From Escherichia phage EP1, in the sequence record OR892555.1: a DNA stretch of 64,000 nt; one strand, given 5' to 3'. The translations under genes were made by a program, and so were the position numbers. Shown here one piece after another: positions 2,780 through 62,349 of this stretch. The number at the start of each line of letters is the position of its first letter. Positions within the stretch are counted from its first letter, which is position 1. Under the pieces are notes generated by a model that made no database searches, was not told the origin of the DNA, and saw only the letters and a program-made list of their open reading frames with translations.

Positions 2780-3042
2780 TTCTCTACAGATTTTTCTCTT
2801 GACTTTTGGGGAGAGGGGGAGTAAGAGGGGGAGAGGGGCAGGGCTGGCACTATCTACCTACCTGCACAATTCTAAAATGATTTTTCTTGCCCGACACTCG
2901 CCGGGTCTGCACGTTTTGAAAATGAAAAAGCTCTTTGGAGTCCACCTGCACAAATTGAAAATGAATTTTCCCTTTGGATTTCAAAATTTTCTCTACAGAT
3001 TTCTGTCCAGACTTTTACCTGCACAATTTTAAAATGAAAAAG
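2780..3042. repeat. ORF-free region with four copies of a ~20-25 bp motif (CCTGCACAAnTTnnAAAATGAA; 2861-2880, 2907-2930, 2945-2965, 3018-3042) and two copies of TTCTCTACAGATTT (2780-2795, 2989-3005)
   Basis: direct repeats at irregular spacing; no credible ORF on the transcribed strand. Confidence 0.6.
2808..2846 (+). repeat. polypurine G-rich tract (GGGGAGAGGGGGAGTAAGAGGGGGAGAGGGGCAGGG) with five G-runs
   Basis: read directly; stands out in an AT-rich genome. Confidence 0.6.
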
Positions 3043-3110
3043 CCCTCCTTACCTGAAAATTTTACCAGATAAGAAAGGCTTAGTCTATTGTGAATATGCT
3101 ACAGAGTTTC

Positions 3111-3893
3111 TTAGTTCTTTGCAGCTAAGAACTTGATATTGGAAATGTCTACAATTGCTTCAGCATCTTTCTCATTTGCTGCAAGAATGTACACATCAGG
3201 TTCACTTCCAAATGTCGCTGCACGTTGCATACTGCCTTTCAACGGTGGGGTAACTTGAGCGTTACTTAGAGACATTCTCTCAACCGGAGGGTTACTCCGA
3301 TGTACCTTGTTCTTACGATGCCTGAAGAGGGTAACTCCGTCTTCGTTGACAACGGCTACCCCTGCAAAGTATTGTGGTTCACTGTGATTACCCCATGTTG
3401 ACAGAGTATTAAACATTGCCTCTTCAAATACGTAAAGGTAAACATCAACATCTTTCAAGATGTGATTCATGATTACCACAACAGCTTTCGGGTCAAGTCC
3501 ACCAATACCTGCACCAATCATTGGGAGACCAACTTTCTTCAGTTGATTCACTTTGCAGTACTGGTTAAGGCTCAACAAAGCACTCTCAAGAGCATCGTAA
3601 CGAGCATCTTTACCAGTCTTCAACTGAGTGTACAGGTTAGCAATACGGCCTTGTTTAAGACGTGCTACAGAGAGTTTACCAAGCAGTTTCTGACAAGGTT
3701 TATGCTCTCTTCCTCCTGCTACACGGTAGACTTCGGCATCAGTTTCATAGGCTTTTGGGTAACCTTTAGAAATCTTGTCAGCAATACCTGCACCCATCAG
3801 GTTCATACAGTTGCAACCGTGACCAATGATATCAAACTTACCTTTTTCAAAGTCTGCGAAGATATCACCTTTGATGACTTTTACAATACCCAT
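3111..3893 (-). CDS. macro-domain protein (ADP-ribose binding/processing) with ~90-aa C-terminal extension
   Basis: N-terminal GDIF...DIIGHGCNCMNLMGAGIADKI and later GLPMIGAGIGG match macro-domain glycine-rich signatures. Confidence 0.8.
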   Translation of the reverse strand: MGIVKVIKGDIFADFEKGKFDIIGHGCNCMNLMGAGIADKISKGYPKAYETDAEVYRVAGGREHKPCQKLLGKLSVARLKQGRIANLYTQLKTGKDARYDALESALLSLNQYCKVNQLKKVGLPMIGAGIGGLDPKAVVVIMNHILKDVDVYLYVFEEAMFNTLSTWGNHSEPQYFAGVAVVNEDGVTLFRHRKNKVHRSNPPVERMSLSNAQVTPPLKGSMQRAATFGSEPDVYILAANEKDAEAIVDISNIKFLAAKN

Positions 3894-4616: not shown

Positions 4617-4773
4617 CAGAGACTACCTCTTCAATTTGCTGTAGAATTGCTTCTGAAGTTTCTTCCCACATCGTCATACTGTCAATATCACCACAACAAC
4701 TTTCTCCAGCAACGTTGTAACGTGCTTGACCATATTCTTTGATGAGTTCAATCAACTTCTCTTTGCTTGACAT
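4600..4773 (-). CDS. possible small acidic ORF (57 aa) missed by the ORF track
   Basis: ATG at 4771-4773 preceded by GAGGAAG; fills the 4616-4775 gap and overlaps the next start by 17 nt. Confidence 0.3.
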   Translation of the reverse strand: MSSKEKLIELIKEYGQARYNVAGESCCGDIDSMTMWEETSEAILQQIEEVVSDGIER

Positions 4774-4774
4774 G

Positions 4775-5044
4775 TTACTTCCTCGTTTTGAGAACTGCCA
4801 TAATTTCTTTGGTATCTTCTAAGAACCATGTGTAGTGATTCTCTTTTATTTCTGGATGAGTGTCAATCTTTAATTTGCAATCTCTTCCAGTATCTTTCAG
4901 TTGAGTTGTGATACCCTTCATAAAGATATGGCACATCACATCATCCATAACCATTGGCATGAAGTCAATGCGCATGTAAGTATCTTTTGGTCTTGGAAGA
5001 AGTAAATAACCTTCTGTATAGAACAGTTCTGTCTCTTGACTCAT
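4775..5044 (-). CDS. hypothetical protein
   Basis: 89-aa ORF. Confidence 0.5.
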   Translation of the reverse strand: MSQETELFYTEGYLLLPRPKDTYMRIDFMPMVMDDVMCHIFMKGITTQLKDTGRDCKLKIDTHPEIKENHYTWFLEDTKEIMAVLKTRK

Positions 5045-5310
5045 TGCTGCTTATTCCCTAACAAAATCATATCAATCAAATTATTGGCTTTCATCGTACA
5101 CTGATAGTACCCATCACGATAAAATTCAAGGGCTTGTGACAGGTCTGTGCCTGTATTACCCTTGACAACGTAGCGTGATTCTTCTTGAGTATACTTATCA
5201 CTTTCACTTACTTGGGAGTTTTTGAACGTAGAGTTCACTTTGTTCATTGAACACCCTGACATAAGTATCAGTAGCACAAATGTTATAAAACTCTGGCTTA
5301 GTCTTTTCAT
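5041..5310 (-). CDS. putative lipoprotein, candidate outer-membrane spanin subunit
   Basis: signal peptide ending in lipobox-like LMSGC; gene overlaps the 3' end of the preceding membrane-protein gene. Confidence 0.4.
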   Translation of the reverse strand: MKRLSQSFITFVLLILMSGCSMNKVNSTFKNSQVSESDKYTQEESRYVVKGNTGTDLSQALEFYRDGYYQCTMKANNLIDMILLGNKQQ

Positions 5311-5551
5311 ATGTCAATACCTCTTTTGTGTGTTTGTTTTTAGCAAGCACGTCTTTCAAATCATTTTTGTAACTGGAGCTAAGATTTGCTAAACCTTCTT
5401 GGTAAGCATCCTTAGCAACACTTACAAGTTTCTGGTTAGTTAACTCTGTTTGAGTGACTTGGTAATCCTTGTAAGAATAACCCCCCCAGACACCTACACC
5501 AATCAGAAAAACAACTATGAAAGCGGCTTGACAGAACTCTTTAAATTTCAT
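5204..5551 (-). CDS. type-II membrane protein, candidate inner-membrane spanin subunit
   Basis: N-terminal TM (AAFIVVFLIGVGVWGG) then hydrophilic domain; overlapped by the lipoprotein gene in another frame. Confidence 0.4.
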   Translation of the reverse strand: MKFKEFCQAAFIVVFLIGVGVWGGYSYKDYQVTQTELTNQKLVSVAKDAYQEGLANLSSSYKNDLKDVLAKNKHTKEVLTYEKTKPEFYNICATDTYVRVFNEQSELYVQKLPSK

Positions 5552-5567
5552 TTGTCAATCTCCTAAA

Positions 5568-5592
5568 ACGAAAAAGGCTCCCGAAGGAGCCT
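5568..5592 (-). terminator. rho-independent terminator (GGCTCC-cgaa-GGAGCC then U-run on minus strand)
   Basis: perfect 6-bp GC stem, tetraloop, T-tract read directly. Confidence 0.6.
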
Positions 5593-5603
5593 GTATCATA
5601 ACC

Positions 5604-6068
5604 TTAACCGAGGACTTTAGCAAGGACATTTGCAGCCATCGTCGAAGCTTTTGCAGCAGCAGCTACGCCAGCTTTGATAGTGCTATCCTTAATGGCAGAT
5701 ACCGTTGCAGCATCAGTAAAGAGATATGTGGTAGTTTGTGAACCACTTGTAAAGGAAAGCATAAGAGCAGTTTCCAGATTGAAAGAACGGTACGGAGCAC
5801 CGGACTGTACAATTCCTTTAGCACCCAACTCTGAAGCCATACCCATGTCATAGATGGTCATCAGGTTTTCTTTATGTGCTGTAGTAGAACCGACACCTTT
5901 AACGTGTTTTGAAACGTTCAGCAGAGCACGATATTCACGGATATCACCATCAGCTTTTACATTGACAGCACGAAAGATTTTGCCATCAAAGTTGCTTTTA
6001 ATGATATCACGAACAACCTGTGATTTGTTTGCTGATGCGTCGATAGCTACTGTAATAATGTTTTGCAT
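5604..6068 (-). CDS. hypothetical protein (154 aa, Ala/Ser/Thr-rich C-terminus)
   Basis: ORF with own terminator downstream; no recognisable motif. Confidence 0.5.
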   Translation of the reverse strand: MQNIITVAIDASANKSQVVRDIIKSNFDGKIFRAVNVKADGDIREYRALLNVSKHVKGVGSTTAHKENLMTIYDMGMASELGAKGIVQSGAPYRSFNLETALMLSFTSGSQTTTYLFTDAATVSAIKDSTIKAGVAAAAKASTMAANVLAKVLG

Positions 6069-6080
6069 GATTTCTCTCTC

Positions 6081-6776
6081 TTAGTGTTTGATAAGCATTG
6101 TGTTAATTTCTGGAAGGATTCGTTTAACCTTCTCAACATTCCTTACTGTATCTTCTATAAAACATACTACATCATAGTACGGAAGAATGCAAGACTGAAT
6201 CATACGAACTTTCAAACTTTCTGCACTGATTCTATTTGAACCAAAACCACGCATAAAAAGCATGTAGTCAGTCACGATATGCTTGTCAATAAACAAGTGG
6301 GTTGGTACACGTTGAGACTCACCACGAGCAGTTAAAACACCGATTGCAGCACTTTTATGGATGCCTGAAATGATGTTAAAGATGTACGTAGGTTGTGCAT
6401 CAACTGACTCAATCAAGTTTGTATACTGTGACAGAGTGCCATCTTCCAGATATGTTGAGTTTGTTGGCTTATCAAACTTAGTGAGAACACCATCAATATC
6501 TGTTAAAACCATTGGCTTCTTCATATCAAGGTCTTTTGCAACCAAGATTAAGCTGTCACGTTTAACGGCTACTGACTTACCTGTTTGAAGGTCTGTACAG
6601 AGAACTGTTTCAGCAGATGAATGAAAGTTTTTGAAGTCACATTCAACAACCCTTGCAGTATCTGCAAAGTCTTCTTTCATAAGGTCTGTCCAGCTTGCAG
6701 CACTAATATCAATAGCCAGAGGATTGATATCGTAAGCGTGACAAAATACCTTATCCAATTGTTTTAATTCGCTCAT
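6081..6776 (-). CDS. HAD-superfamily phosphatase/nucleotidase-like protein
   Basis: DIDGVL (DxDG motif I), GVLTAR (motif II) and FIEDTVRN (motif IV-like); track start is TTG at 6818, first in-frame ATG is 6776 by frame arithmetic; start uncertain. Confidence 0.35.
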   Translation of the reverse strand: MSELKQLDKVFCHAYDINPLAIDISAASWTDLMKEDFADTARVVECDFKNFHSSAETVLCTDLQTGKSVAVKRDSLILVAKDLDMKKPMVLTDIDGVLTKFDKPTNSTYLEDGTLSQYTNLIESVDAQPTYIFNIISGIHKSAAIGVLTARGESQRVPTHLFIDKHIVTDYMLFMRGFGSNRISAESLKVRMIQSCILPYYDVVCFIEDTVRNVEKVKRILPEINTMLIKH

Positions 6777-7302
6777 GTTTAACCTTTTTGATGTTTGTTG
6801 CAAACTCACATTGAGCAAGCACCTTCATGTTATTGTACACATCTTGAGAGTATTGTCTAGCTTTTGGAATGTGGTATGAGTATCCTGCATTATATGAAGC
6901 CAAGACACGCTGTAAAGAGTATTTCCCATTAGGATTACCATGAACCTTAGTCCAGAACTGAAGCTCTTTGTGTGTCTCCTTTGCAGCATAATCGAAGTCT
7001 CTGACAAGTTTCTTCTTAGCTACATTTGGGTTAACTTTGTTACGCTTTACAACAGTCTTCAAGTGATTCTGGAACAATCCATAATCGTGAGTCTTTTTAT
7101 TTTCAAGACGAAGACCTAACTCTGACTCTTGTAAGGCTATAGCGGCTAAGGTTAATCCCCAACCTTTACCCATCTCTTTCTCACCGTAGTGATAAGCTTT
7201 AAGCATGTTTGTTTTCTGACTGATGGATAATTCTGGACAGTCTGAAGCGACTGCCAGATGTGCTGTTAAGAATAAGCACAAACCTAAAATGAACTTCTTC
7301 AT
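6751..7302 (-). CDS. secreted lytic transglycosylase (SLT domain) with cleavable signal peptide; candidate endolysin
   Basis: signal peptide MKKFILGLCLFLTAHLAVA; SLT motifs ES, GLFQ and SYNAG in order. Confidence 0.7.
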   Translation of the reverse strand: MKKFILGLCLFLTAHLAVASDCPELSISQKTNMLKAYHYGEKEMGKGWGLTLAAIALQESELGLRLENKKTHDYGLFQNHLKTVVKRNKVNPNVAKKKLVRDFDYAAKETHKELQFWTKVHGNPNGKYSLQRVLASYNAGYSYHIPKARQYSQDVYNNMKVLAQCEFATNIKKVKHERIKTIG

Positions 7303-7361
7303 TGGTTCTCCTATTTAGTTCAACATGCAAGCAATTATACACTAATCTTCACAAAACACAA

Positions 7362-7388
7362 ATAAAAAAGGCTGCCGAAGCAGCCCTT
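7362..7388 (-). terminator. rho-independent terminator (GGCTGC-cgaa-GCAGCC then U-run) after rIIB-like gene
   Basis: stem-loop and T-tract read directly. Confidence 0.6.
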
Positions 7389-7402
7389 TAAGAATTTACT
7401 TA

Positions 7403-8512
7403 TCAGATTTCACGTTTACGTTGAGAAATCAATTCACCAGCAGTACCTACAACAACATGCAGTGCTTCAGATTTGCCATCCCATTCTTTGACAACCTGAC
7501 GCTGACCATTCACGATTGCTGCAACTTCATAACGGGAAGCTCGCATTTTCATATCATGGTAATCAGTTGGTACAGATACAACGTCTCGTGGATGTACACG
7601 AACTTTCAGGATAGTATCACCAGAGAAGCTACGTACATAATCCCAAGCACCGACATGCAGACCTTGAGAGCAAGTTACTGTACGGTCATTATCAACCATC
7701 CAGCGTGGCATCTCTACAACGTTACCCAAATCGTTAGGAACTTTGCATGTACGGGAGTCAAACAGCTTACCACCACGAGTTGTAACTTTCTTCCAACCGA
7801 TGATATAACCTTCTTCATCAATCTCAACATCAAGGTGAGATACAAAGCCCCAAAGTTGTTCTACAGAATCTTTGGATGGGTTTTCCATCAGTTTTTCGAA
7901 GAATGCTACCAGACGTTTAAAGCCATCATCACCAACTTTCATCATGTCCAGAATACGGTCTACCAGAGTGGAACGCATTTGAACAGCACCGTAGTACAGG
8001 TTATCACCTTTGATAGTGATTGCACCCTGAGTGAAGTTCTCGATAGACTTACGAATGTTCATCAGTTCGAAAGCTTTCTTGTACTCACCACCTACAACAG
8101 CCATCACGATTTCTTTGTAGTTAGGATGGGTAGATTCAACGATTTCAGAATCTGCACCGAAAGTCATGATAACAGAATCACCAGTAATCATGTACTCAAT
8201 CTGGTTGCCATTCTGCATCGCTTCATGCAGTTGGTTAACAGGTTCCTTCTTCACTGCCTCTTTAACAGCCTTGGCAACTGGCTTAGTAGCCGTCTTCTTA
8301 GCAGACTTTGCAATCTGTTTCAGAGTCTGCTTAGCTGACTTAGAAGATGCTTTCTTAGCACCTTTCAGTGTTGCTTCGTGACGTTCTACAGCACGACCAA
8401 CGGAACGAGTAGAAGTGTTATACTTCATTGCAATGGCAGTTTTGGTAAGTTTACCTTCCTGAACCAGTGCGTAGATTTCTGCGTCGATTTGTGCTTTAGT
8501 TTTAGTAGTCAT
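7403..8512 (-). CDS. rIIB: rIIB-like protein
   Basis: 369-aa ORF immediately downstream of rIIA with basic Lys/Ala-rich N-terminal region; call rests on position and size. Confidence 0.5.
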   Translation of the reverse strand: MTTKTKAQIDAEIYALVQEGKLTKTAIAMKYNTSTRSVGRAVERHEATLKGAKKASSKSAKQTLKQIAKSAKKTATKPVAKAVKEAVKKEPVNQLHEAMQNGNQIEYMITGDSVIMTFGADSEIVESTHPNYKEIVMAVVGGEYKKAFELMNIRKSIENFTQGAITIKGDNLYYGAVQMRSTLVDRILDMMKVGDDGFKRLVAFFEKLMENPSKDSVEQLWGFVSHLDVEIDEEGYIIGWKKVTTRGGKLFDSRTCKVPNDLGNVVEMPRWMVDNDRTVTCSQGLHVGAWDYVRSFSGDTILKVRVHPRDVVSVPTDYHDMKMRASRYEVAAIVNGQRQVVKEWDGKSEALHVVVGTAGELISQRKREI

Positions 8513-8591
8513 CTTATTACTCTCTCTTGTTAGTTAATATTACTTAGTGGTTCGTATTCTAAGGGGCTTTTCAGCCCCTGTCAAACTGTTT

Positions 8592-10958
8592 TTAATCGAA
8601 AGCCTGAGTTCCTTCAGGAATGCACTTAACATCAAATCCTAAGAACTGACCAACTTCAACAGGACTTACTTTATTCCAGTCTAAGTTAGAAAGCAAGAAG
8701 TTTTCTGCTTTACGTGCTGTGAAGTACACATTCAACTTCTGCTTAATACGTTCTCTTGCATTGTAGATTGCAGAGTGTACCTTACTCTTAGCTCTTGTCA
8801 AGCGTTGTAAGTCATGCAGAACACTTGTAACGTCCTTATAAGCAATCGGTGAAGCGACATAAGCCAGCTTACCAAACATTGCTTCTACAGCATCTTCATT
8901 CCCTTCCAAGAAGATACGTTTGCTGTAATCAGTACTGTAGACATAACCTCTTGAGCACTTCTTATCACCAAACTGGAACGTTCTTGCAATAACACCTTTA
9001 TCAGTGATATCACAGTTTGAACTACACCATTCACGAGTTACAAAGCGGTTAAACTCAATCCAGTGAATGTCAGTGATAGAATCTTTGAAGACTTGCTGAT
9101 TCACCTCTAACCAGTCTTCAGGGATTTTCTTCCAGTTTGCTTTACGGAACACATAAACTGACTGTCCAGTTAAACGTGCAGATACCTTAGCAGCCGCCTC
9201 TGGAGAACAGTTAAATATACCACCAAGAACCTCATCACTTTGAGCCTTGATATAATACTGAGGTTCTTCAATATCATCAAAGTTTTCTTTCACTTCTCCA
9301 TAGGACACTCCATGCTCATGTACAGAAGCTTTGTAGAGTTTTACAACACCACGAGTCACGGTACGCTTCACATAGTGATGCTCTTTGTCAGACATTTTAA
9401 CAATCGTCAACAGACTCTTATCAAGCATGTGAAGACTGATAAAATCATCTAACTCTTTCTCATCAGAGAAGACGTATACAATACCATTATAGCGACGGAA
9501 GTTTGAATCTTCATTTTCACGGTCACGGCAAGCTCCACGAATAATTTGATTACGCCCTACAGTTTTTTCAGTACCATTTTTGTTTCTACGGTCATTAATG
9601 AGGAACAAATAGTTAATCATTTTGTTCTTACTCATTGCTCCGAAGATACTGAAGTTTGCACCCTCCTGAGTGTACAACGCTGAAGTAGCACGAATTTTGT
9701 TCTCAAGCTGGCTGTACTTAAAGTATGCAACAGGTTCATAAAGATTGCCAATCACTGGAATATGATTACCACTCTTATCAACAACCAAAGCTCCTGAATC
9801 ATCAGTCGCAAACTTTGGAGTACCGTCTTGATTACTTAATTGTCCTTGACGAATCTTTAAAAGTTTCTGCTCAAGGTTACTTAAGTTCTGACCATTCCAC
9901 TCAAGACGGGTAAACACATGCTGGAAGATTTCACGAGAGTTAGCTCGCAAGTCTGCATAAGCCTGTGCTGCATCTACCAGAGTTGGTTCGTCAGCAATAC
10001 GTTTTACCACATCTTCTACAATTGTTGCAGTAATCTTTTTAACTGCATCTGTAATTGCTTTCTTGGTGGTCTCATTCATCTGCAATGCTTCACGAGATGC
10101 AGCGATAGCCACTGAACCAATCGGCATGTAGATGTTAACAAGGTCTACAGCGTTACGGAAGAATGTAGGAAGAACATTGGTGAACTCTGCACCAAGCAAG
10201 TCTCCTAAGTCAACAGGATAAGCAATGTTACCCATGACAACGTTGAAATTTGTCTGGTTATTACTTGAACGCCAGTTCTCTTTATACTTCATCGCATCGT
10301 AAACACCGTCTTCACGAACAATAGTGGTCATCTCACTGAGAATGTCACGATACTCTACGTTGCATTCTGGCTTCAGTTTGAAGTAAGAGAATACGTTGCT
10401 CGCTTCTTCATGGAACTTCTGAATACGATGGTCAGCCACTGCAACACGAACTGCTAAACCGTTTGGTTCGGTGGTCTGGTTAGTCGTCAGCTTAGTAACT
10501 TGAGGAATACCATTCTCAAGATATACAGAGTACTTATTAACCACGCCGTCTACGTAGCTGGACACGGTGAATGATTGTGCAATTGCAAAAGGTGACTTTG
10601 AACCAATACCCATAGCACCGATGTAGTCGTTTGAGTCATTCTTAGTAGAAGCTCCATAGTTCAGGTACAGAGACATAACCTTCTCATGAGTCAGACCAGT
10701 ACCAAAATCACGAACTTCAAAGTATGGGTCAAAACGAGTTGGCAGGTGTACACGGAACGGTACATTCTCTTTTCCAGCTTCTTTGTGAGTATCTACAGCA
10801 TTACAAGATAACTCACGAATTACAGCACGTTCTTTAAAGGTATAAACACCTGAACTTAACAGGCTGAACATTTCAGGAGTCATCGTGATAGATGCCTGAG
10901 AAGTTTCTAATGAAGATGAACTCTTAATCACCTCTGCGTGGTCATTTACCATGCGCAT
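8592..10958 (-). CDS. rIIA: rIIA-like protein with GHKL (histidine-kinase-like) ATPase domain
   Basis: 788 aa; N-terminal NAVD...FEVRDFGTGL...GAMGIGSKSPF matches GHKL N, G1 and G2 boxes; followed by rIIB-sized partner. Confidence 0.75.
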   Translation of the reverse strand: MRMVNDHAEVIKSSSSLETSQASITMTPEMFSLLSSGVYTFKERAVIRELSCNAVDTHKEAGKENVPFRVHLPTRFDPYFEVRDFGTGLTHEKVMSLYLNYGASTKNDSNDYIGAMGIGSKSPFAIAQSFTVSSYVDGVVNKYSVYLENGIPQVTKLTTNQTTEPNGLAVRVAVADHRIQKFHEEASNVFSYFKLKPECNVEYRDILSEMTTIVREDGVYDAMKYKENWRSSNNQTNFNVVMGNIAYPVDLGDLLGAEFTNVLPTFFRNAVDLVNIYMPIGSVAIAASREALQMNETTKKAITDAVKKITATIVEDVVKRIADEPTLVDAAQAYADLRANSREIFQHVFTRLEWNGQNLSNLEQKLLKIRQGQLSNQDGTPKFATDDSGALVVDKSGNHIPVIGNLYEPVAYFKYSQLENKIRATSALYTQEGANFSIFGAMSKNKMINYLFLINDRRNKNGTEKTVGRNQIIRGACRDRENEDSNFRRYNGIVYVFSDEKELDDFISLHMLDKSLLTIVKMSDKEHHYVKRTVTRGVVKLYKASVHEHGVSYGEVKENFDDIEEPQYYIKAQSDEVLGGIFNCSPEAAAKVSARLTGQSVYVFRKANWKKIPEDWLEVNQQVFKDSITDIHWIEFNRFVTREWCSSNCDITDKGVIARTFQFGDKKCSRGYVYSTDYSKRIFLEGNEDAVEAMFGKLAYVASPIAYKDVTSVLHDLQRLTRAKSKVHSAIYNARERIKQKLNVYFTARKAENFLLSNLDWNKVSPVEVGQFLGFDVKCIPEGTQAFD

Positions 10959-19450: not shown

Positions 19451-19657
19451 TTAATTCTTTTTGAAAATCTTCTCAACAAACTTTTTGAGTTTGCTGCTAA
19501 TGTCAAGATGGATTTCTAGAATCTCAAAGATTACCCATACTAGCATAGCACCAAACAAAGCACCTTGTTTGATATCAATAAACAGGTTCACAAAGAAGAA
19601 ACCTAAGATAATCATCGGTGCATCAACTGTGAAACCTTCCCACAAACGCTTAAGCAT
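19451..19657 (-). CDS. small two-TM membrane protein with charged C-terminus (holin-like topology)
   Basis: 68 aa; hydrophobic MIILGFFFVNLFI and ALFGAMLVWVIFEIL, C-terminus KLKKFVEKIFKKN. Confidence 0.45.
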   Translation of the reverse strand: MLKRLWEGFTVDAPMIILGFFFVNLFIDIKQGALFGAMLVWVIFEILEIHLDISSKLKKFVEKIFKKN

Positions 19658-42200: not shown

Positions 42201-42240
42201 CAAAAAAGGCTCCTTTTTACGGGAGCCTTAAACTTATTTT
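42201..42240. terminator. bidirectional rho-independent terminator at the convergence of plus and minus blocks (A-run, GGCTCC-loop-GGAGCC, T-run)
   Basis: hairpin flanked by A-tract and T-tract between thyA stop and the converging minus-strand gene. Confidence 0.6.
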
Positions 42241-42608
42241 TTCTTAGCATTTTGAGTGTTCTGTTCAGTGATTGCTTGCAAAGCTGATACAGATTGTGCT
42301 AGGTTGTTAACACTGTCAGAGAATTTATCAAGGGTCTTGGTCAACTTGGCGTTTTCACCCTTTACGTTCTCTAGCTGAACCTTCTGGTTCTCCATGCCTA
42401 ATTGCAGGAGTTTCATGTCAGACTGTAAATCACGAATAGCTGAATAGTTGCTTTTGTTGTAACTATCTAGCTGCTGTAACTTTGTCGAAACGGAAACTTC
42501 CTGCTTCCCACTAGACACCTGCATTGTAGTGTACATACCAATTACACTGAAGATACCCACAACAATTGCACCAATGTTATTTTTGAAAGCATCCTCTAAC
42601 CACTTCAT
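42234..42608 (-). CDS. membrane-anchored coiled-coil protein
   Basis: N-terminal TM IGAIVVGIFSVIGMY then heptad-like Q/L/N-rich region. Confidence 0.45.
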   Translation of the reverse strand: MKWLEDAFKNNIGAIVVGIFSVIGMYTTMQVSSGKQEVSVSTKLQQLDSYNKSNYSAIRDLQSDMKLLQLGMENQKVQLENVKGENAKLTKTLDKFSDSVNNLAQSVSALQAITEQNTQNAKKK

Positions 42609-42802
42609 TCTTTCTCCCCTTTAAAGGCTTTTTCCAAGTTATTAACAAATTCATCATCAATAGGCGTATCTGTCTTACTCGCAAGGTATCTTGCAAGTCT
42701 GAAGAAGGCTTTCTCAATCATGTATTCACTCAGAAGGGAAAGTAGAAGTTTCCAGAGGAAGCTACCCAAGTTTTTTAAGAGGATTACTAGGATAGTCGGC
42801 AT
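42605..42802 (-). CDS. small hydrophobic/amphipathic protein
   Basis: 65-aa ORF with ILVILLKNLGSFLWKLLLSLL. Confidence 0.4.
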   Translation of the reverse strand: MPTILVILLKNLGSFLWKLLLSLLSEYMIEKAFFRLARYLASKTDTPIDDEFVNNLEKAFKGEKE

Positions 42803-60662: not shown

Positions 60663-62015
60663 TTAATTGATAAGAGATTTCAAAGCATTCTGGAGAGCCA
60701 GTTTGCGTTGTTCTGCGGTGTCATCAGAAGCCTTTTCAGAAGGTTTTTCTTCATCAACCAGTTCTGCTTCACCGTCATTACCCATTTCTTCCATTGCATT
60801 AGAGTGTTCCAGAACAGCACCAGCAGTTTCTTTCAGCTTAGTGATTTCTGAATCTTTCTCCGACATTGCAGAAGCATGAGCCGCGATAGTTTCATTTAGT
60901 TTCTGGTTAGCACCTTCCATAGCATTCATAAAGAGAACACTCAGAGGGTTGTCAAGACCAGCGCCTAAGATAGCCTGAGCAGCTTCTGTTGCGTCAAACC
61001 CGAAAGCTTCAGCAGAAGCAGAAATCTTACCAGTCAGTTCAGACATAGTTTTTTCCTGTTCTTTTGCTTTCATCTGAGCAACCTGAGCGCGTAGAGCCTC
61101 TAGTTCTTGCTTTTCTTGTTCAGTCATTTCTTCACCTGAATTGTTAACGTTTAAACTTACAGGAGCTTCGTCAGAACCTTGTAAGTAATTTAAGAAATCA
61201 TCTTGAGACATGATTGAATTAATTAAACCAAGTTCAAGAGCTTCCTGAGCAGAATAAACATTCGCCTCAGTATTCTTTACAGCTTCTTCAGAGATGTTAC
61301 GTGCATCAGCTACAAAACCTGTGAAGGTGTTATAGGTGTCATTAATTCTCTGTTGAAGTCTTGTTTTGCTTTCTTCTGAGAGTGCTTGGAATGGAGAACC
61401 CAAACCTTTAAATTCACCAGCTTTAATAACGTTAATTGTAACGCCATTCTTTTCAAATGCTTTAGTTAATTCTTGGTGAACCATAATTACACCGATTGAA
61501 CCAACATCTGCATCTGGTGATGCAATTACTTCATCAGCAGAACATGCAAGTGCATATGCAGCGGAACATGCGAACTCATCAACATATGCTACAATTTTCT
61601 TTTTGCCTCTGGAGGCTACGATGTGACGTGCTAATTCAAAACAACCTGAAGCTTCACCACCACCAGAATCAACGTGCAGTACAATTGTCTTAATAGATTC
61701 ATCTGCTAAAGCTTCGTCGAAGCCTCTGCGTAAACCTTCATAAGAACTTAGACCACCAGTACACATTGCATCCATAAATGTCATACGATGTGTTAGGCCA
61801 CCCATAATAGGAATAATAGCAATGTCGTCTTTGACTTTTAAAAGACTTCTTGCCTCACCTTTAGGTTTGTCGAAATTGACTGCTGCTTGAACTTCACCTA
61901 ACAAGCGGTTATTTACATAAGTCGCTGCTGAGTGAGCTAGAGATTCAGTGGCTAGTAAAGGCTGGTTGAATAATCTATCAGCAAGTCTGAAGATATTCGA
62001 ACTCATTTTACTCAC
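60663..62015 (-). CDS. prohead protease (S49/ClpP-like) with C-terminal coiled-coil scaffold-like domain
   Basis: IVLHVDSGGGEASG...CSAAYALACSADEV...GSIGVIMVHQ protease core; Glu/Ala/Lys-rich C-terminus. Confidence 0.75.
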   Translation of the reverse strand: MSKMSSNIFRLADRLFNQPLLATESLAHSAATYVNNRLLGEVQAAVNFDKPKGEARSLLKVKDDIAIIPIMGGLTHRMTFMDAMCTGGLSSYEGLRRGFDEALADESIKTIVLHVDSGGGEASGCFELARHIVASRGKKKIVAYVDEFACSAAYALACSADEVIASPDADVGSIGVIMVHQELTKAFEKNGVTINVIKAGEFKGLGSPFQALSEESKTRLQQRINDTYNTFTGFVADARNISEEAVKNTEANVYSAQEALELGLINSIMSQDDFLNYLQGSDEAPVSLNVNNSGEEMTEQEKQELEALRAQVAQMKAKEQEKTMSELTGKISASAEAFGFDATEAAQAILGAGLDNPLSVLFMNAMEGANQKLNETIAAHASAMSEKDSEITKLKETAGAVLEHSNAMEEMGNDGEAELVDEEKPSEKASDDTAEQRKLALQNALKSLIN

Positions 62016-62016
62016 C

Positions 62017-62349
62017 CTATTTGTTTAAATCCACCGATACTGAAGCGATAACATAGATACCTTCTTCAGCAAAGAATTGAGGGCTGCTAAGAGCACCTGT
62101 TGCCACGCATTTATCGTTGGCATCCCATAGGCTATAGTGTGAGACCGTTGCAGAAGCTGGCACAGTGATATTAACTGTGTCTTCTGAGGCAATTAAGCCA
62201 TTGTTCGGTTCAGAGAAATAAATAGCCACTGGCTGAGTAACCTTATTTGCTGTAGGGTCTGCCGTTGGGTCTACATTGTGTAAAACAATAGTCGTTGGGG
62301 TTAGCGTGGCGAGGATTTTATTCTTACCATCAATAGTTAATGTTCCCAT
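62017..62349 (-). CDS. hypothetical head-module protein
   Basis: 110-aa Thr/Val-rich ORF between portal and protease. Confidence 0.4.
   Translation of the reverse strand: MGTLTIDGKNKILATLTPTTIVLHNVDPTADPTANKVTQPVAIYFSEPNNGLIASEDTVNITVPASATVSHYSLWDANDKCVATGALSSPQFFAEEGIYVIASVSVDLNK

What the first reader, a model, noticed from the sequence alone, without database searches (positions are those of the whole stretch)
5041..7302. Lysis-like cluster in the early/middle block: signal-peptide lytic transglycosylase plus overlapping spanin-like pair, no obvious holin
The protein at 6751-7302 has a Sec signal peptide followed by an SLT domain with the ES, GLFQ and SYNAG motifs in order. That is a secreted lytic transglycosylase, so an endolysin that could reach the wall without a holin. 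Downstream (after a HAD-like gene and a 154-aa unknown) is a textbook spanin arrangement: a type-II membrane protein (5204-5551) whose 3' end is overlapped in another frame by a lipoprotein gene (5041-5310). No adjacent holin is evident; the only holin-like small membrane proteins are distant (19451-19657; 42234-42802). The cluster is also separated from the late structural module. Alternatively the transglycosylase could serve another periplasmic role.
Basis: partly seen in the sequence, partly recalled or inferred. Interest (0 to 1): 0.5.

Follow-up and report, generated by a model that had tools for sequence, protein, structure and literature searches.

The report
Known spanin pair plus Vs.1-type transglycosylase
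This stretch of a Felix O1-like coliphage holds an already catalogued spanin gene pair and a secreted cell-wall-cutting enzyme related to phage T4's uncharacterised Vs.1 protein; the phage's real endolysin and putative holin lie elsewhere, so this is an ordinary, T4-style scattered lysis system rather than a holin-free lysis cassette.

Summary

- The window is a Suspvirus (Felix O1-like, 98.9% identical to EcSzw-2).
- Its relatives carry a canonical soluble GH24 endolysin, which lies outside this window, and a widely annotated putative holin at window 42237-42608.
- The literature already states that Felix O1-like lysis genes are scattered, as in T4.
- The spanin pair is listed in the 2018 spanin census.
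- The SLT protein is a full-length homolog of T4 Vs.1 (PHROG 600, 31% identity). This family occurs in 2,129 phage records, and its SLT similarity was noted by 2006, but no function is known.
- T4 needs e and t to lyse although it has vs.1, so this family is very unlikely to be a holin-independent endolysin.
- It is most likely a non-essential periplasmic enzyme that remodels peptidoglycan.
- Terminator hairpins separate it from the spanin genes.

Novelty is low. The unresolved role of the Vs.1 family is the only open question.

The parts
6751..7302 (-). Vs.1-family secreted lytic transglycosylase, 183 aa. Signal peptide is aa 1-19 (nt 7246-7302) with predicted cleavage AVA|SD. Catalytic Glu59 is at nt 7126-7128. 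Cys22 and Cys165 are a likely disulfide pair.
7366..7389 (-). Intrinsic-terminator-like hairpin (UUCG loop plus T-run) between rIIB and the SLT gene
   Evidence: Scan result: 10 pairs, 5 GC. A terminator is annotated at the same position in Michonne.
6081..6776 (-). HAD/PNKP-phosphatase-like protein, annotated 'polynucleotide kinase' in relatives. The mechanical ORF extends to TTG 6818; the likely start is ATG 6776, overlapping the SLT 3' end by 26 nt.
   Evidence: PHROG 3970 E=3.8e-117, aligned from residue 15. Pfam HAD_PNKP weak. Only the phosphatase half aligns to T4 PseT. Relatives annotate a 231-aa form.
5604..6068 (-). 154-aa protein of unknown function with no TMD or signal peptide, restricted to Ounavirinae
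   Evidence: PHROG 2267, unknown function. No Pfam or NCBIfam hit. 298 phage records, all Felix O1-like. Hydropathy.
5575..5592 (-). Intrinsic-terminator-like hairpin (UUCG loop plus T-run) between the 154-aa gene and the i-spanin gene
   Evidence: Scan result: 7 pairs, 5 GC. A terminator is annotated at the same position in Michonne.
5204..5551 (-). i-spanin, 115 aa: N-in single TMD (aa ~6-27), periplasmic domain with invariant Cys92
   Evidence: PHROG 1152 Rz-like spanin E=5.9e-38. Hydropathy. Alignment across genera. Annotated i-spanin in relatives. AGGAG RBS.
5041..5310 (-). o-spanin, 89 aa: lipoprotein signal with lipobox LMSG|C20, Ser at +2, invariant Cys71. It is in the +1 frame, overlaps the i-spanin gene by 107 nt and extends beyond it (overlapped architecture).
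   Evidence: Lipobox test. Conservation of start codon, lipobox and Cys71 down to 36% identity. PHROG 4180, with a weak match to PHROG 456 spanin. Annotated o-spanin in Michonne. Felix O1 pair listed as overlapped.
42237..42608 (-). Putative holin of the same lysis system (124 aa, one N-terminal TMD plus a coiled-coil tail), last gene of the tail-fibre operon. Its function is unverified.
   Evidence: 99% identical to mistaenkt_81 'holin'. Annotated putative holin in many of the 244 matching records. PHROG 4038, unknown function. Hydropathy.
7403..10958 (-). rIIB (7403-8512) and rIIA (8592-10958), the genes immediately upstream (context only)
   Evidence: PHROG 609 E=1.3e-85 and PHROG 612 E=2.4e-179.

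Best explanation
The window is part of a Felix O1-like (Suspvirus) genome whose lysis genes are dispersed in the same way as in T4. Two independent things sit side by side at 5041-7302.

(a) An overlapped two-component spanin.
- The i-spanin is anchored in the inner membrane by its N-terminal TMD.
- The o-spanin is lipidated at Cys20 and sorted to the outer membrane.
- The two form a complex that spans the periplasm. It is probably stabilised by homotypic disulfides through Cys92 and Cys71.
- The complex fuses or disrupts the outer membrane after the wall has been degraded.

(b) A Sec-exported, soluble, disulfide-bonded family-1 lytic transglycosylase of the T4 Vs.1 family.
- It is made before or alongside the lysis proteins.
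- It cuts glycan strands in the periplasm in a limited, non-lethal way.
- It is an accessory enzyme that remodels or pre-conditions peptidoglycan. It is not the endolysin.

The main wall degradation is done by a separate cytoplasmic GH24 lysozyme, encoded outside this window. That enzyme is released by the putative holin at 42237-42608.

Shown here: gene anatomy, export signals, fold, catalytic conservation, homology to Vs.1, and the presence of the canonical lysin and putative holin in near-identical genomes.
Inferred: actual export, enzymatic activity, the accessory role, and the disulfides.
For: Identity of the phage: 98.9% to EcSzw-2 and 96-97% to SUSP2, CHB7 and mistaenkt.

Spanins:
- PHROG 1152 E=5.9e-38.
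- TMD and lipobox.
- Lipobox, start codon and single periplasmic Cys in each subunit invariant down to 29-36% identity.
- Annotated as i-/o-spanin in Michonne, mistaenkt and Sf13.
- Felix O1 pair listed in the overlapped class, together with the rule of at least one homotypic disulfide, in Kongari 2018 (PMC6139136).

SLT:
- Core model pLDDT >90.
- Profile hit to EtgA.
- E59, Y137, G140 and Y151 invariant in 154/154.
- 114/121 family representatives have a hydrophobic N-terminus.
- Cys22 and Cys165 are present together or absent together (74/63 against 17 single), as expected for a periplasmic disulfide.
- Same PHROG as T4 Vs.1, with full-length BLASTP E=3e-15.

Not the endolysin:
- A canonical Phage_lysozyme (E=2.6e-39, no TMD) is present in EcSzw-2, mistaenkt, SUSP2 and CHB7 and absent from the window.
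- A putative holin is present in the window.
- The Felix O1 and Moogle papers name the GH24 protein as the lysin and describe scattered lysis genes.
- vs.1 is among the conserved T4 ORFs not identified as essential.
- T4 e and t mutants do not lyse despite carrying vs.1 (established T4 genetics, own knowledge).
- gp3 is not in the Felix O1 virion protein list.

Separate transcription units: terminator hairpins at 7389-7366 and 5592-5575.
Against: - No experiment on any Vs.1-family protein was found, so the accessory role is argued by exclusion.
- In the Felix O1 RT-PCR table the SLT ORF peaks at 25 min, the same class as lysin gp35. Timing therefore does not separate it from lysis functions.
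- The GH24 protein has not been shown genetically to be the lysis enzyme of a Felix O1-like phage in anything I read.
- The holin assignment rests only on position and topology (PHROG 4038 'unknown').
- The canonical lysin is inferred for this phage from near-identical genomes and is not seen in the window itself.
- The window protein alone falls just below Pfam's SLT gathering score.
Confidence: 0.72

Rival explanations
1. One reading: the SLT protein is a Sec-delivered endolysin. It accumulates in the periplasm and lyses the cell without a holin, or on membrane depolarisation, as described for secreted endolysins such as Lys44 of Oenococcus phage fOg44 (own knowledge). With the nearby spanins it would form a holin-less lysis module.
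For: - Genuine muralytic fold with invariant catalytic residues.
- Canonical cleavable signal peptide, conserved family-wide.
- Lies 1.2 kb from the spanins.
- Transcript peak in Felix O1 is in the same class as the lysin.
- CHB7, finno and UniRef call it 'lysin'.
Against: - A canonical soluble GH24 endolysin and a putative holin exist in the same genomes.
- T4 carries the homolog Vs.1 yet strictly needs e and t for lysis (own knowledge). vs.1 is not among the genes identified as essential.
- Terminators separate it from the spanins.
- The adjacency is not conserved in T4.
- The gene sits in the rII/nucleotide-metabolism block, not with late genes.
Confidence: 0.1
2. The SLT is a 'specialised' lytic transglycosylase in the sense of EtgA, IagB, VirB1 and P19. 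It would open local gaps in peptidoglycan so that a phage-encoded trans-envelope structure can assemble through the wall. The obvious candidate is the i-spanin/o-spanin bridge. It might be activated by a partner protein.
For: - It shares that group's build: about 160 aa mature, single domain, Sec signal.
- It lies near the spanins in Ounavirinae.
- vs.1, pseT.2 and pseT.3 are all among the 11 ORFs of then-unknown function conserved in all T4-like genomes studied.
Against: - There is no direct evidence.
- vs.1 and the spanin genes are about 73 kb apart in T4.
- No partner gene is conserved next to it across families: HAD in Ounavirinae, DUF7270 in Kuttervirus, vs in T4.
- Lambda-type spanins function without any such enzyme (own knowledge).
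Confidence: 0.1
3. The SLT is a virion or ejection protein that digests the wall during infection, like T7 gp16 or the phiKZ gp144-type SLT domains.
For: SLT domains are common in virion-associated lysins. T4 Vs.1 gives weak PHROG hits to lytic tail protein and internal virion protein families.
Against: - A cleavable Sec signal peptide sends the protein out of the cytoplasm, where virions assemble.
- It is not in the Felix O1 virion proteome list.
- It is small and single-domain, and lies in the early/middle gene block.
Confidence: 0.03

Closest known systems
T4 Vs.1 (NP_049725, 'hypothetical protein'; PHROG 600)
   Same: Full-length homolog: 31% identity, E=3e-15. It has the same length (181 against 183 aa), an N-terminal signal peptide, and the QES, YG(L/M)FQN and SYN(A/S)G motifs. 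It is in the same PHROG and lies in a pre-late gene block.
   Different: Its neighbours differ (regB and vs in T4; rIIB and a HAD phosphatase here). T4 Vs.1 lacks the Cys22/Cys165 pair. Function is unknown in both.
Felix O1 gp3 / ORF10, gp6 and gp7; Michonne gp142, gp139 and gp138
   Same: Orthologs at about 80% identity in the same gene order: rIIA-rIIB-SLT-HAD-unknown-i-spanin-o-spanin. The Felix O1 record already notes the similarity to the T4 'vs-regB intergenic' protein.
   Different: Only sequence divergence. Annotation quality varies between records.
EtgA (EPEC T3SS specialised lytic transglycosylase, PDB 8urn/4xp8)
   Different: EtgA is encoded in a secretion-system locus and acts with the rod protein EscI. 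The phage protein has no such context or conserved partner.
Lambda Rz/Rz1 and T4 PseT.3/PseT.2 two-component spanins
   Same: Same topology (type II inner-membrane protein plus outer-membrane lipoprotein) and periplasmic Cys residues. As in T4, the pair lies away from the holin and endolysin and next to a PNK-type gene.
   Different: No detectable sequence similarity to T4's pair, and different PHROGs. The architecture is overlapped, not embedded (lambda) or separated (T4). There is one Cys in each subunit here, whereas T4 has none in the i-spanin and two in the o-spanin.
Secreted and SAR endolysins (fOg44 Lys44; P1 Lyz; phage 21 R) - from own knowledge
   Same: A muralytic enzyme exported by the Sec system independently of a holin.
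   Different: Those are the phage's only endolysin and sit in a lysis cassette. Here a separate canonical GH24 endolysin exists. The signal is a cleavable AxA signal peptide, not a SAR anchor.

Membership tests
Two-component spanin (overlapped class) | i-spanin: a single N-terminal TMD with N-in topology and a periplasmic C-terminal domain | tested here: met
   KD19 maximum 2.01 at residues 6-24, the only hydrophobic segment. Lys2 and Lys4 lie on the N-side.
Two-component spanin (overlapped class) | o-spanin: a signal peptidase II lipobox with an outer-membrane sorting residue (not Asp) at +2 | tested here: met
   MKRLSQSFITFVLLILMSG|C20-S21 matches the PROSITE-type lipobox. Cys20 and Ser21 are invariant in 4 genera.
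Two-component spanin (overlapped class) | The o-spanin gene starts inside the i-spanin gene in another frame and extends past its stop | tested here: met
   5204-5551 against 5041-5310: 107-nt overlap in the +1 frame. The same layout occurs in Felix O1, Michonne and phi63_307.
Two-component spanin (overlapped class) | Periplasmic cysteine(s) allowing homotypic intermolecular disulfides | tested here: met
   i-spanin Cys92 and o-spanin Cys71 are invariant at 29-36% identity. The rule is from PMC6139136. Bond formation itself was not tested.
Two-component spanin (overlapped class) | Homology to proteins classed as spanins | tested here: met
   PHROG 1152 Rz-like spanin E=5.9e-38. The o-spanin matches PHROG 456 only weakly (5e-4). 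The Felix O1 pair is listed in the census.
Two-component spanin (overlapped class) | Required for outer-membrane disruption; complements lambda Rz/Rz1 amber mutants | not testable with these tools
   Needs a lysis assay.
Family-1 lytic transglycosylase (SLT domain, GH23) | Goose-type-lysozyme-like alpha-helical fold | tested here: met
Family-1 lytic transglycosylase (SLT domain, GH23) | Catalytic Glu in an E-S motif, plus the G-L-x-Q, A/S-Y-N-x-G and downstream Tyr motifs | tested here: met
   E59-S60, G75-LFQ78, S136-YNAG140 and Y151. E59, Y137, G140 and Y151 are invariant in 154/154.
Family-1 lytic transglycosylase (SLT domain, GH23) | Score above Pfam PF01464's gathering threshold | tested here: inconclusive
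   Window protein 20.5 bits, below 21.3. Homologs T4 Vs.1 (25.1 bits) and STP55 (21.4 bits) pass.
Family-1 lytic transglycosylase (SLT domain, GH23) | Non-hydrolytic cleavage that yields 1,6-anhydroMurNAc ends | not testable with these tools
   Needs muropeptide analysis. A g-type-lysozyme-like hydrolytic mechanism cannot be excluded from sequence.
T4 Vs.1 family (PHROG 600) | Full-length homology to T4 Vs.1 | tested here: met
   BLASTP E=3e-15 over residues 1-155. Both match PHROG 600 end to end.
T4 Vs.1 family (PHROG 600) | About 160-200 aa, single domain, with an N-terminal export signal | tested here: met
   Median length 182 aa. 114/121 representatives have a hydrophobic N-terminus.
Holin-independent (secreted or SAR) endolysin | A muralytic domain with a Sec-dependent export signal | tested here: met
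   The signal is a cleavable AxA type, not a Gly/Ala-rich SAR anchor.
Holin-independent (secreted or SAR) endolysin | It is the phage's principal or sole lysis muralytic enzyme | tested here: not met
   A separate canonical Phage_lysozyme endolysin is present in near-identical genomes. T4 has both e and vs.1.
Holin-independent (secreted or SAR) endolysin | Encoded in a lysis cassette with a (pin)holin | tested here: not met
   The neighbours are rIIB and a HAD phosphatase, and it is flanked by terminators. The putative holin is 35 kb away.
Holin-independent (secreted or SAR) endolysin | Loss of the gene gives a lysis defect | not testable with these tools
   Needs a phage knock-out. By analogy, vs.1 was not identified as essential in T4.
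Specialised secretion-system lytic transglycosylases (EtgA/IagB/VirB1/P19) | Encoded within, and acting with, a trans-envelope secretion or conjugation apparatus | tested here: not met
   All contexts examined are phage genomes or phage-like contigs.

The most novel reading that the evidence does not exclude
The Vs.1-family exported lytic transglycosylase occurs in thousands of T4-like, Felix O1-like and Ackermannviridae genomes and has invariant catalytic residues. It could be an unrecognised extra component of the lysis pathway of large virulent myoviruses. In that reading it is a Sec-delivered enzyme that pre-conditions the sacculus before the holin fires. It might do so by opening the peptidoglycan mesh so that spanin bridges can form, or by setting lysis speed or lysis inhibition.
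Probability: 0.15. Interest if true: 0.55.

Novelty: already known. Interest (0 to 1): 0.2.

Why it matters
For this window it matters little. The genes are near-identical to deposited, annotated Suspvirus genomes. The spanins are catalogued, and the SLT's similarity to T4 Vs.1 was written into the first Felix O1 record.

The useful outcomes are corrective:
1. The region is not a holin-less lysis cassette.
2. Several public records mislabel this family as 'RegB endoribonuclease'.
3. Several records mis-start or omit the o-spanin.

The one real open question is what a conserved, exported, catalytically intact lytic transglycosylase does in T4-, Felix O1- and Vi1-type phages that already have an endolysin. 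It is present in 2,129 phage records and 876 clusters at 50% identity. A simple knock-out in T4 or a Felix O1-like phage could answer it.

Tried and rejected
1. Single-sequence search of the SLT against PDB sequences gave only spurious kinase hits. A profile and a fold search were needed.
2. Sequence homology between these spanins and T4 PseT.3/PseT.2: none. The shared position next to a PNK-type gene is positional only.
3. A conserved SLT-phosphatase gene pair across phage families: rejected. The Kuttervirus neighbour is a DUF7270 protein and T4's is vs.
4. The 'endoribonuclease' annotation: rejected. There is no similarity to RegB.
5. Lipoprotein or SAR status for the SLT: no lipobox, and a canonical AxA site.
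6. The virion-protein idea: the signal peptide and the Felix O1 proteome list argue against it.
7. A secretion-system context for divergent family members: not seen.
8. Literature searches for functional work on vs.1 found nothing beyond the 2006 domain note.
9. The sigma-70 promoter scan gave no more sites than shuffled sequence (23 against 18.7±4.3), so I make no promoter claim.
10. NCBIfam gave no meaningful hits.
Full report
**What the window is.** The region 4700-7500 is 98.9% identical to Escherichia phages EcSzw-2 and EcSzw_1. It is 96-97% identical to SUSP2, CHB7, PC79-13 and mistaenkt (Ounavirinae, genus Suspvirus), and about 80% identical to some 230 other Felix O1-like genomes. The window corresponds roughly to positions 4.7-68.7 kb of the 86.8-kb EcSzw-2 genome.

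**Checking the observation.** The order of transcription is:
- rIIA (8592-10958)
- rIIB (7403-8512)
- SLT protein (6751-7302)
- HAD/PNKP-like protein (6081-6776/6818)
- 154-aa unknown (5604-6068)
- i-spanin (5204-5551)
- o-spanin (5041-5310)
- a run of small unknown genes
- a macro-domain protein (3111-3893)

**SLT protein: export signal.**
- It begins MKK-FILGLCLFLTAHL-AVA|SD, a canonical Sec signal with an AxA cleavage site.
- It has no lipobox.
- A strong AGGAG ribosome-binding site precedes the start codon.

**SLT protein: domain call.**
- On its own the Pfam SLT match is marginal (E=3.5e-4, 20.5 bits against a gathering score of 21.3).
- A single-sequence search of PDB sequences gave only noise.
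- A profile of 14 homologs (A1) hit the specialised lytic transglycosylase EtgA at E=3e-5.
- An AlphaFold model built on that alignment is confident over the whole mature domain (pLDDT above 90 for residues ~30-165).
- The SLT call is therefore sound.

**Spanins.**
- The 115-aa protein has a single N-terminal TMD (residues ~6-27) and matches PHROG 1152 'Rz-like spanin' at E=5.9e-38.
- The 89-aa protein has a PROSITE-type lipobox (LMSG|C20) with Ser at +2.
- Its gene starts inside the i-spanin gene in the +1 frame, overlaps it by 107 nt and runs past its stop.
- The upstream ATG, the lipobox Cys, one mature-domain Cys (C71) and one periplasmic Cys in the i-spanin (C92) are invariant in Felix O1, Michonne and the distant Kolesnikvirus phi63_307 (29-36% identity).
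- The pair is annotated as i-/o-spanin in Michonne, mistaenkt, Sf13 and others.
- The Felix O1 pair is listed in the 'overlapped' class of the spanin census by Kongari et al. 2018. [quoted passage not shown]
- This part of the finding is correct and already known.

**Where the rest of the lysis system is.**
- The annotated genome of mistaenkt carries a 'holin' next to the tail-fibre gene and a separate 154-aa 'putative lysin' about 35 kb further on.
- tblastn shows the holin homolog in the window at 42237-42608, with a small membrane protein at 42608-42802. The lysin has no match in the window.
- The near-identical EcSzw-2 has the lysin at 80800-81264, outside the stretch the window covers.
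- That lysin is a clear Phage_lysozyme (Pfam E=2.6e-39) with an E-x8-D-x5-T motif and no N-terminal TMD. It is a soluble endolysin that needs a holin.
- All close relatives have it, and the putative holin is found in 244 records.
- The Felix O1 genome paper names the Phage_lysozyme protein gp35 as the lysin and notes that, 'as with coliphage T4', no holin is adjacent (PMC3185647).

**What the SLT protein is.**
- A tblastn search of the phage collection found homologs in 2,129 records. They include T4-like Straboviridae, Kuttervirus (Ackermannviridae) and KVP40-like vibriophages.
- In T4-like genomes the gene lies directly downstream of regB. In T4 itself it is vs.1 (61726-62271, 'hypothetical protein').
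- The window protein aligns with T4 Vs.1 over its full length (31% identity, E=3e-15). The signal peptide and the QES, YG(L/M)FQN and SYN(A/S)G motifs are shared.
- Both match PHROG 600 'unknown function' end to end (E=1.5e-56 and 2.1e-68).
- The original Felix O1 GenBank record already describes its ortholog as the 'hypothetical 20.7 KD protein in vs-regB intergenic region'.
- Nolan et al. 2006 list vs.1 among 11 ORFs of unknown function conserved in all T4-like genomes studied and 'not identified as essential'. [quoted passage not shown]
- I found no later functional work.
- An exhaustive profile search found 876 clusters (50% identity) at E≤1e-3 and 566 at E≤1e-10, with a median length of about 180 aa.
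- Of 121 representatives with a complete N-terminus, 114 have a hydrophobic N-terminal segment. The seven exceptions look like truncated start calls.
- E59, Y137, G140 and Y151 are invariant in 154/154 aligned members.
- Cys22 and Cys165 are present together (74) or absent together (63) far more often than singly (17). The Fisher p-value is about 1e-24, not corrected for phylogeny. This pattern is what a disulfide in an exported protein would give.
- The family is therefore a catalytically constrained, exported enzyme.

**Why it is probably not the endolysin.**
1. The same genomes have a canonical endolysin and a putative holin.
2. T4 carries vs.1, yet e mutants and t mutants fail to lyse (classical T4 genetics, my own knowledge). 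A Vs.1-type enzyme is therefore not sufficient for lysis there.
3. The gene lies in the rII/nucleotide-metabolism block.
4. Strong UUCG-loop terminator hairpins lie after rIIB (7389-7366) and after the 154-aa gene (5592-5575). They are also annotated in Michonne and set the SLT-HAD-unknown trio apart from the spanin genes.
5. Adjacency to the spanins is confined to Ounavirinae. In phi63_307 about five genes intervene, and in T4 the two loci are about 73 kb apart.

Two caveats apply. The Felix O1 RT-PCR table puts the SLT ORF (number 3 or 10, depending on the numbering) in the 25-min class, which is the class of lysin gp35. The holin assignment is only positional and topological (PHROG 4038 'unknown').

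**Most likely mechanism.**
- The protein is exported by Sec, its signal is cleaved after Ala19, and it folds in the periplasm with a C22-C165 disulfide.
- There it cleaves glycan strands at a level the cell tolerates. It acts as an accessory enzyme that remodels or pre-conditions peptidoglycan.
- Lysis proper follows the usual pathway. The holin releases the GH24 lysozyme, and the spanin complex then disrupts the outer membrane.
- Export, activity and the accessory role are inferred. Anatomy, fold, conservation and homology are shown.

**Rival readings.**
- A secreted endolysin held inactive until membrane depolarisation (about 0.1).
- An EtgA-like 'specialised' transglycosylase that opens the wall for a phage envelope structure such as the spanin bridge (about 0.1).
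- A virion enzyme (about 0.03). The signal peptide and the Felix O1 virion protein list argue against this.
- I tested whether a partner gene is conserved next to the SLT across families. It is not: HAD phosphatase in Ounavirinae, DUF7270 in Kuttervirus, vs in T4.
- A divergent family member lies on a phage-like contig, not in a secretion-system locus.

**Comparison with T4 as a whole.**
- The layout repeats T4's in several respects: dispersed lysis genes, spanins next to a PNK-type gene (T4 pseT.3-pseT.2-pseT.1-pseT), and a Vs.1 homolog within a few kb of a Tk.4-type macro-domain gene.
- The spanins themselves show no sequence similarity to T4's.
- The 'polynucleotide kinase' here matches only the phosphatase half of PseT.

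**Verdict.** The spanin pair and the SLT protein are real, but both are already known. The region is not a holin-independent lysis module. Interest is low. The only open question is the function of the widespread Vs.1 family.

Noticed in passing
window 5041-5310 (-); L001 4342-4548; L002 2342-2548; L003: The o-spanin is annotated as only 68 aa in mistaenkt and CHB7, starting at Met22, after the lipobox Cys20. It is not annotated at all in SUSP2 RefSeq. The 89-aa form from ATG 5310 carries the lipobox and is conserved across genera, so those records mis-start or miss the gene.
   Followed up: yes
window 6751-7302 (-); L001 6010-6603; L012 2902-3519: Vs.1-family SLT proteins are labelled 'endoribonuclease' or 'RegB site-specific RNA endonuclease' in mistaenkt, Kuttervirus STP55, selz and others. 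There is no similarity to T4 RegB (E=11). The name appears to have bled from the neighbouring regB gene of T4-like phages and then propagated.
   Followed up: yes
window 6081-6818 (-): The gene annotated 'polynucleotide kinase' matches only the HAD phosphatase half of PNKP/T4 PseT. I saw no P-loop in its N-terminal ~100 residues. The likely start is ATG 6776 (231 aa), which overlaps the SLT gene's 3' end by 26 nt, rather than the TTG at 6818.
   Followed up: partly
window 42237-42802 (-): The gene widely annotated 'putative holin' is 124 aa, with one N-terminal TMD and a coiled-coil tail. It is the last gene of the tail-fibre operon, as t follows gene 38 in T4. It has no functional family (PHROG 4038 'unknown') and gives a weak hit (E=0.003) to the T4 PseT.3 i-spanin family. 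Its neighbour (65 aa, PHROG 402) is another small membrane protein. The holin identity is unproven.
   Followed up: partly
window 3111-3893 (-) and 5041-7302 (-); T4 loci L007, L008: There is T4-like micro-synteny without sequence similarity in the spanins. The spanin pair lies next to a PNK-type gene, as with T4 pseT.3/pseT.2/pseT. The Vs.1 homolog lies within ~3 kb of a macro-domain (T4 Tk.4-like) gene, as in T4.
   Followed up: partly
window 7366-7389, 5575-5592, 3040-3081 (-): Three strong terminator-like hairpins divide the rII-to-macro-domain block into units. Two have UUCG tetraloops (GGCUGC-UUCG-GCAGCC and GGCUCC-UUCG-GGAGCC). The Felix O1 paper notes that it is not known how transcription passes such terminators.
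   Followed up: no
SLT family alignment (window residues 22 and 165): Cys22 and Cys165 are gained or lost together across the Vs.1 family (74 both, 63 neither, 17 single). This suggests an optional N-to-C-terminal disulfide staple. T4 Vs.1 has neither Cys.
   Followed up: yes
L014 4989-6579 (metagenomic contig ERZ21849166:contig_2694): A divergent Vs.1-family member sits on a 67-kb phage-like contig immediately downstream of a Gad2-domain gene, near a Mom-domain gene and a faint HAD_PNKP gene.
   Followed up: no
L003 2865-3023 (SUSP2): SUSP2 carries an extra ~170-bp insertion with a 52-aa ORF (gp084) between the 154-aa gene and the i-spanin gene. The insertion is absent from this window.
   Followed up: no
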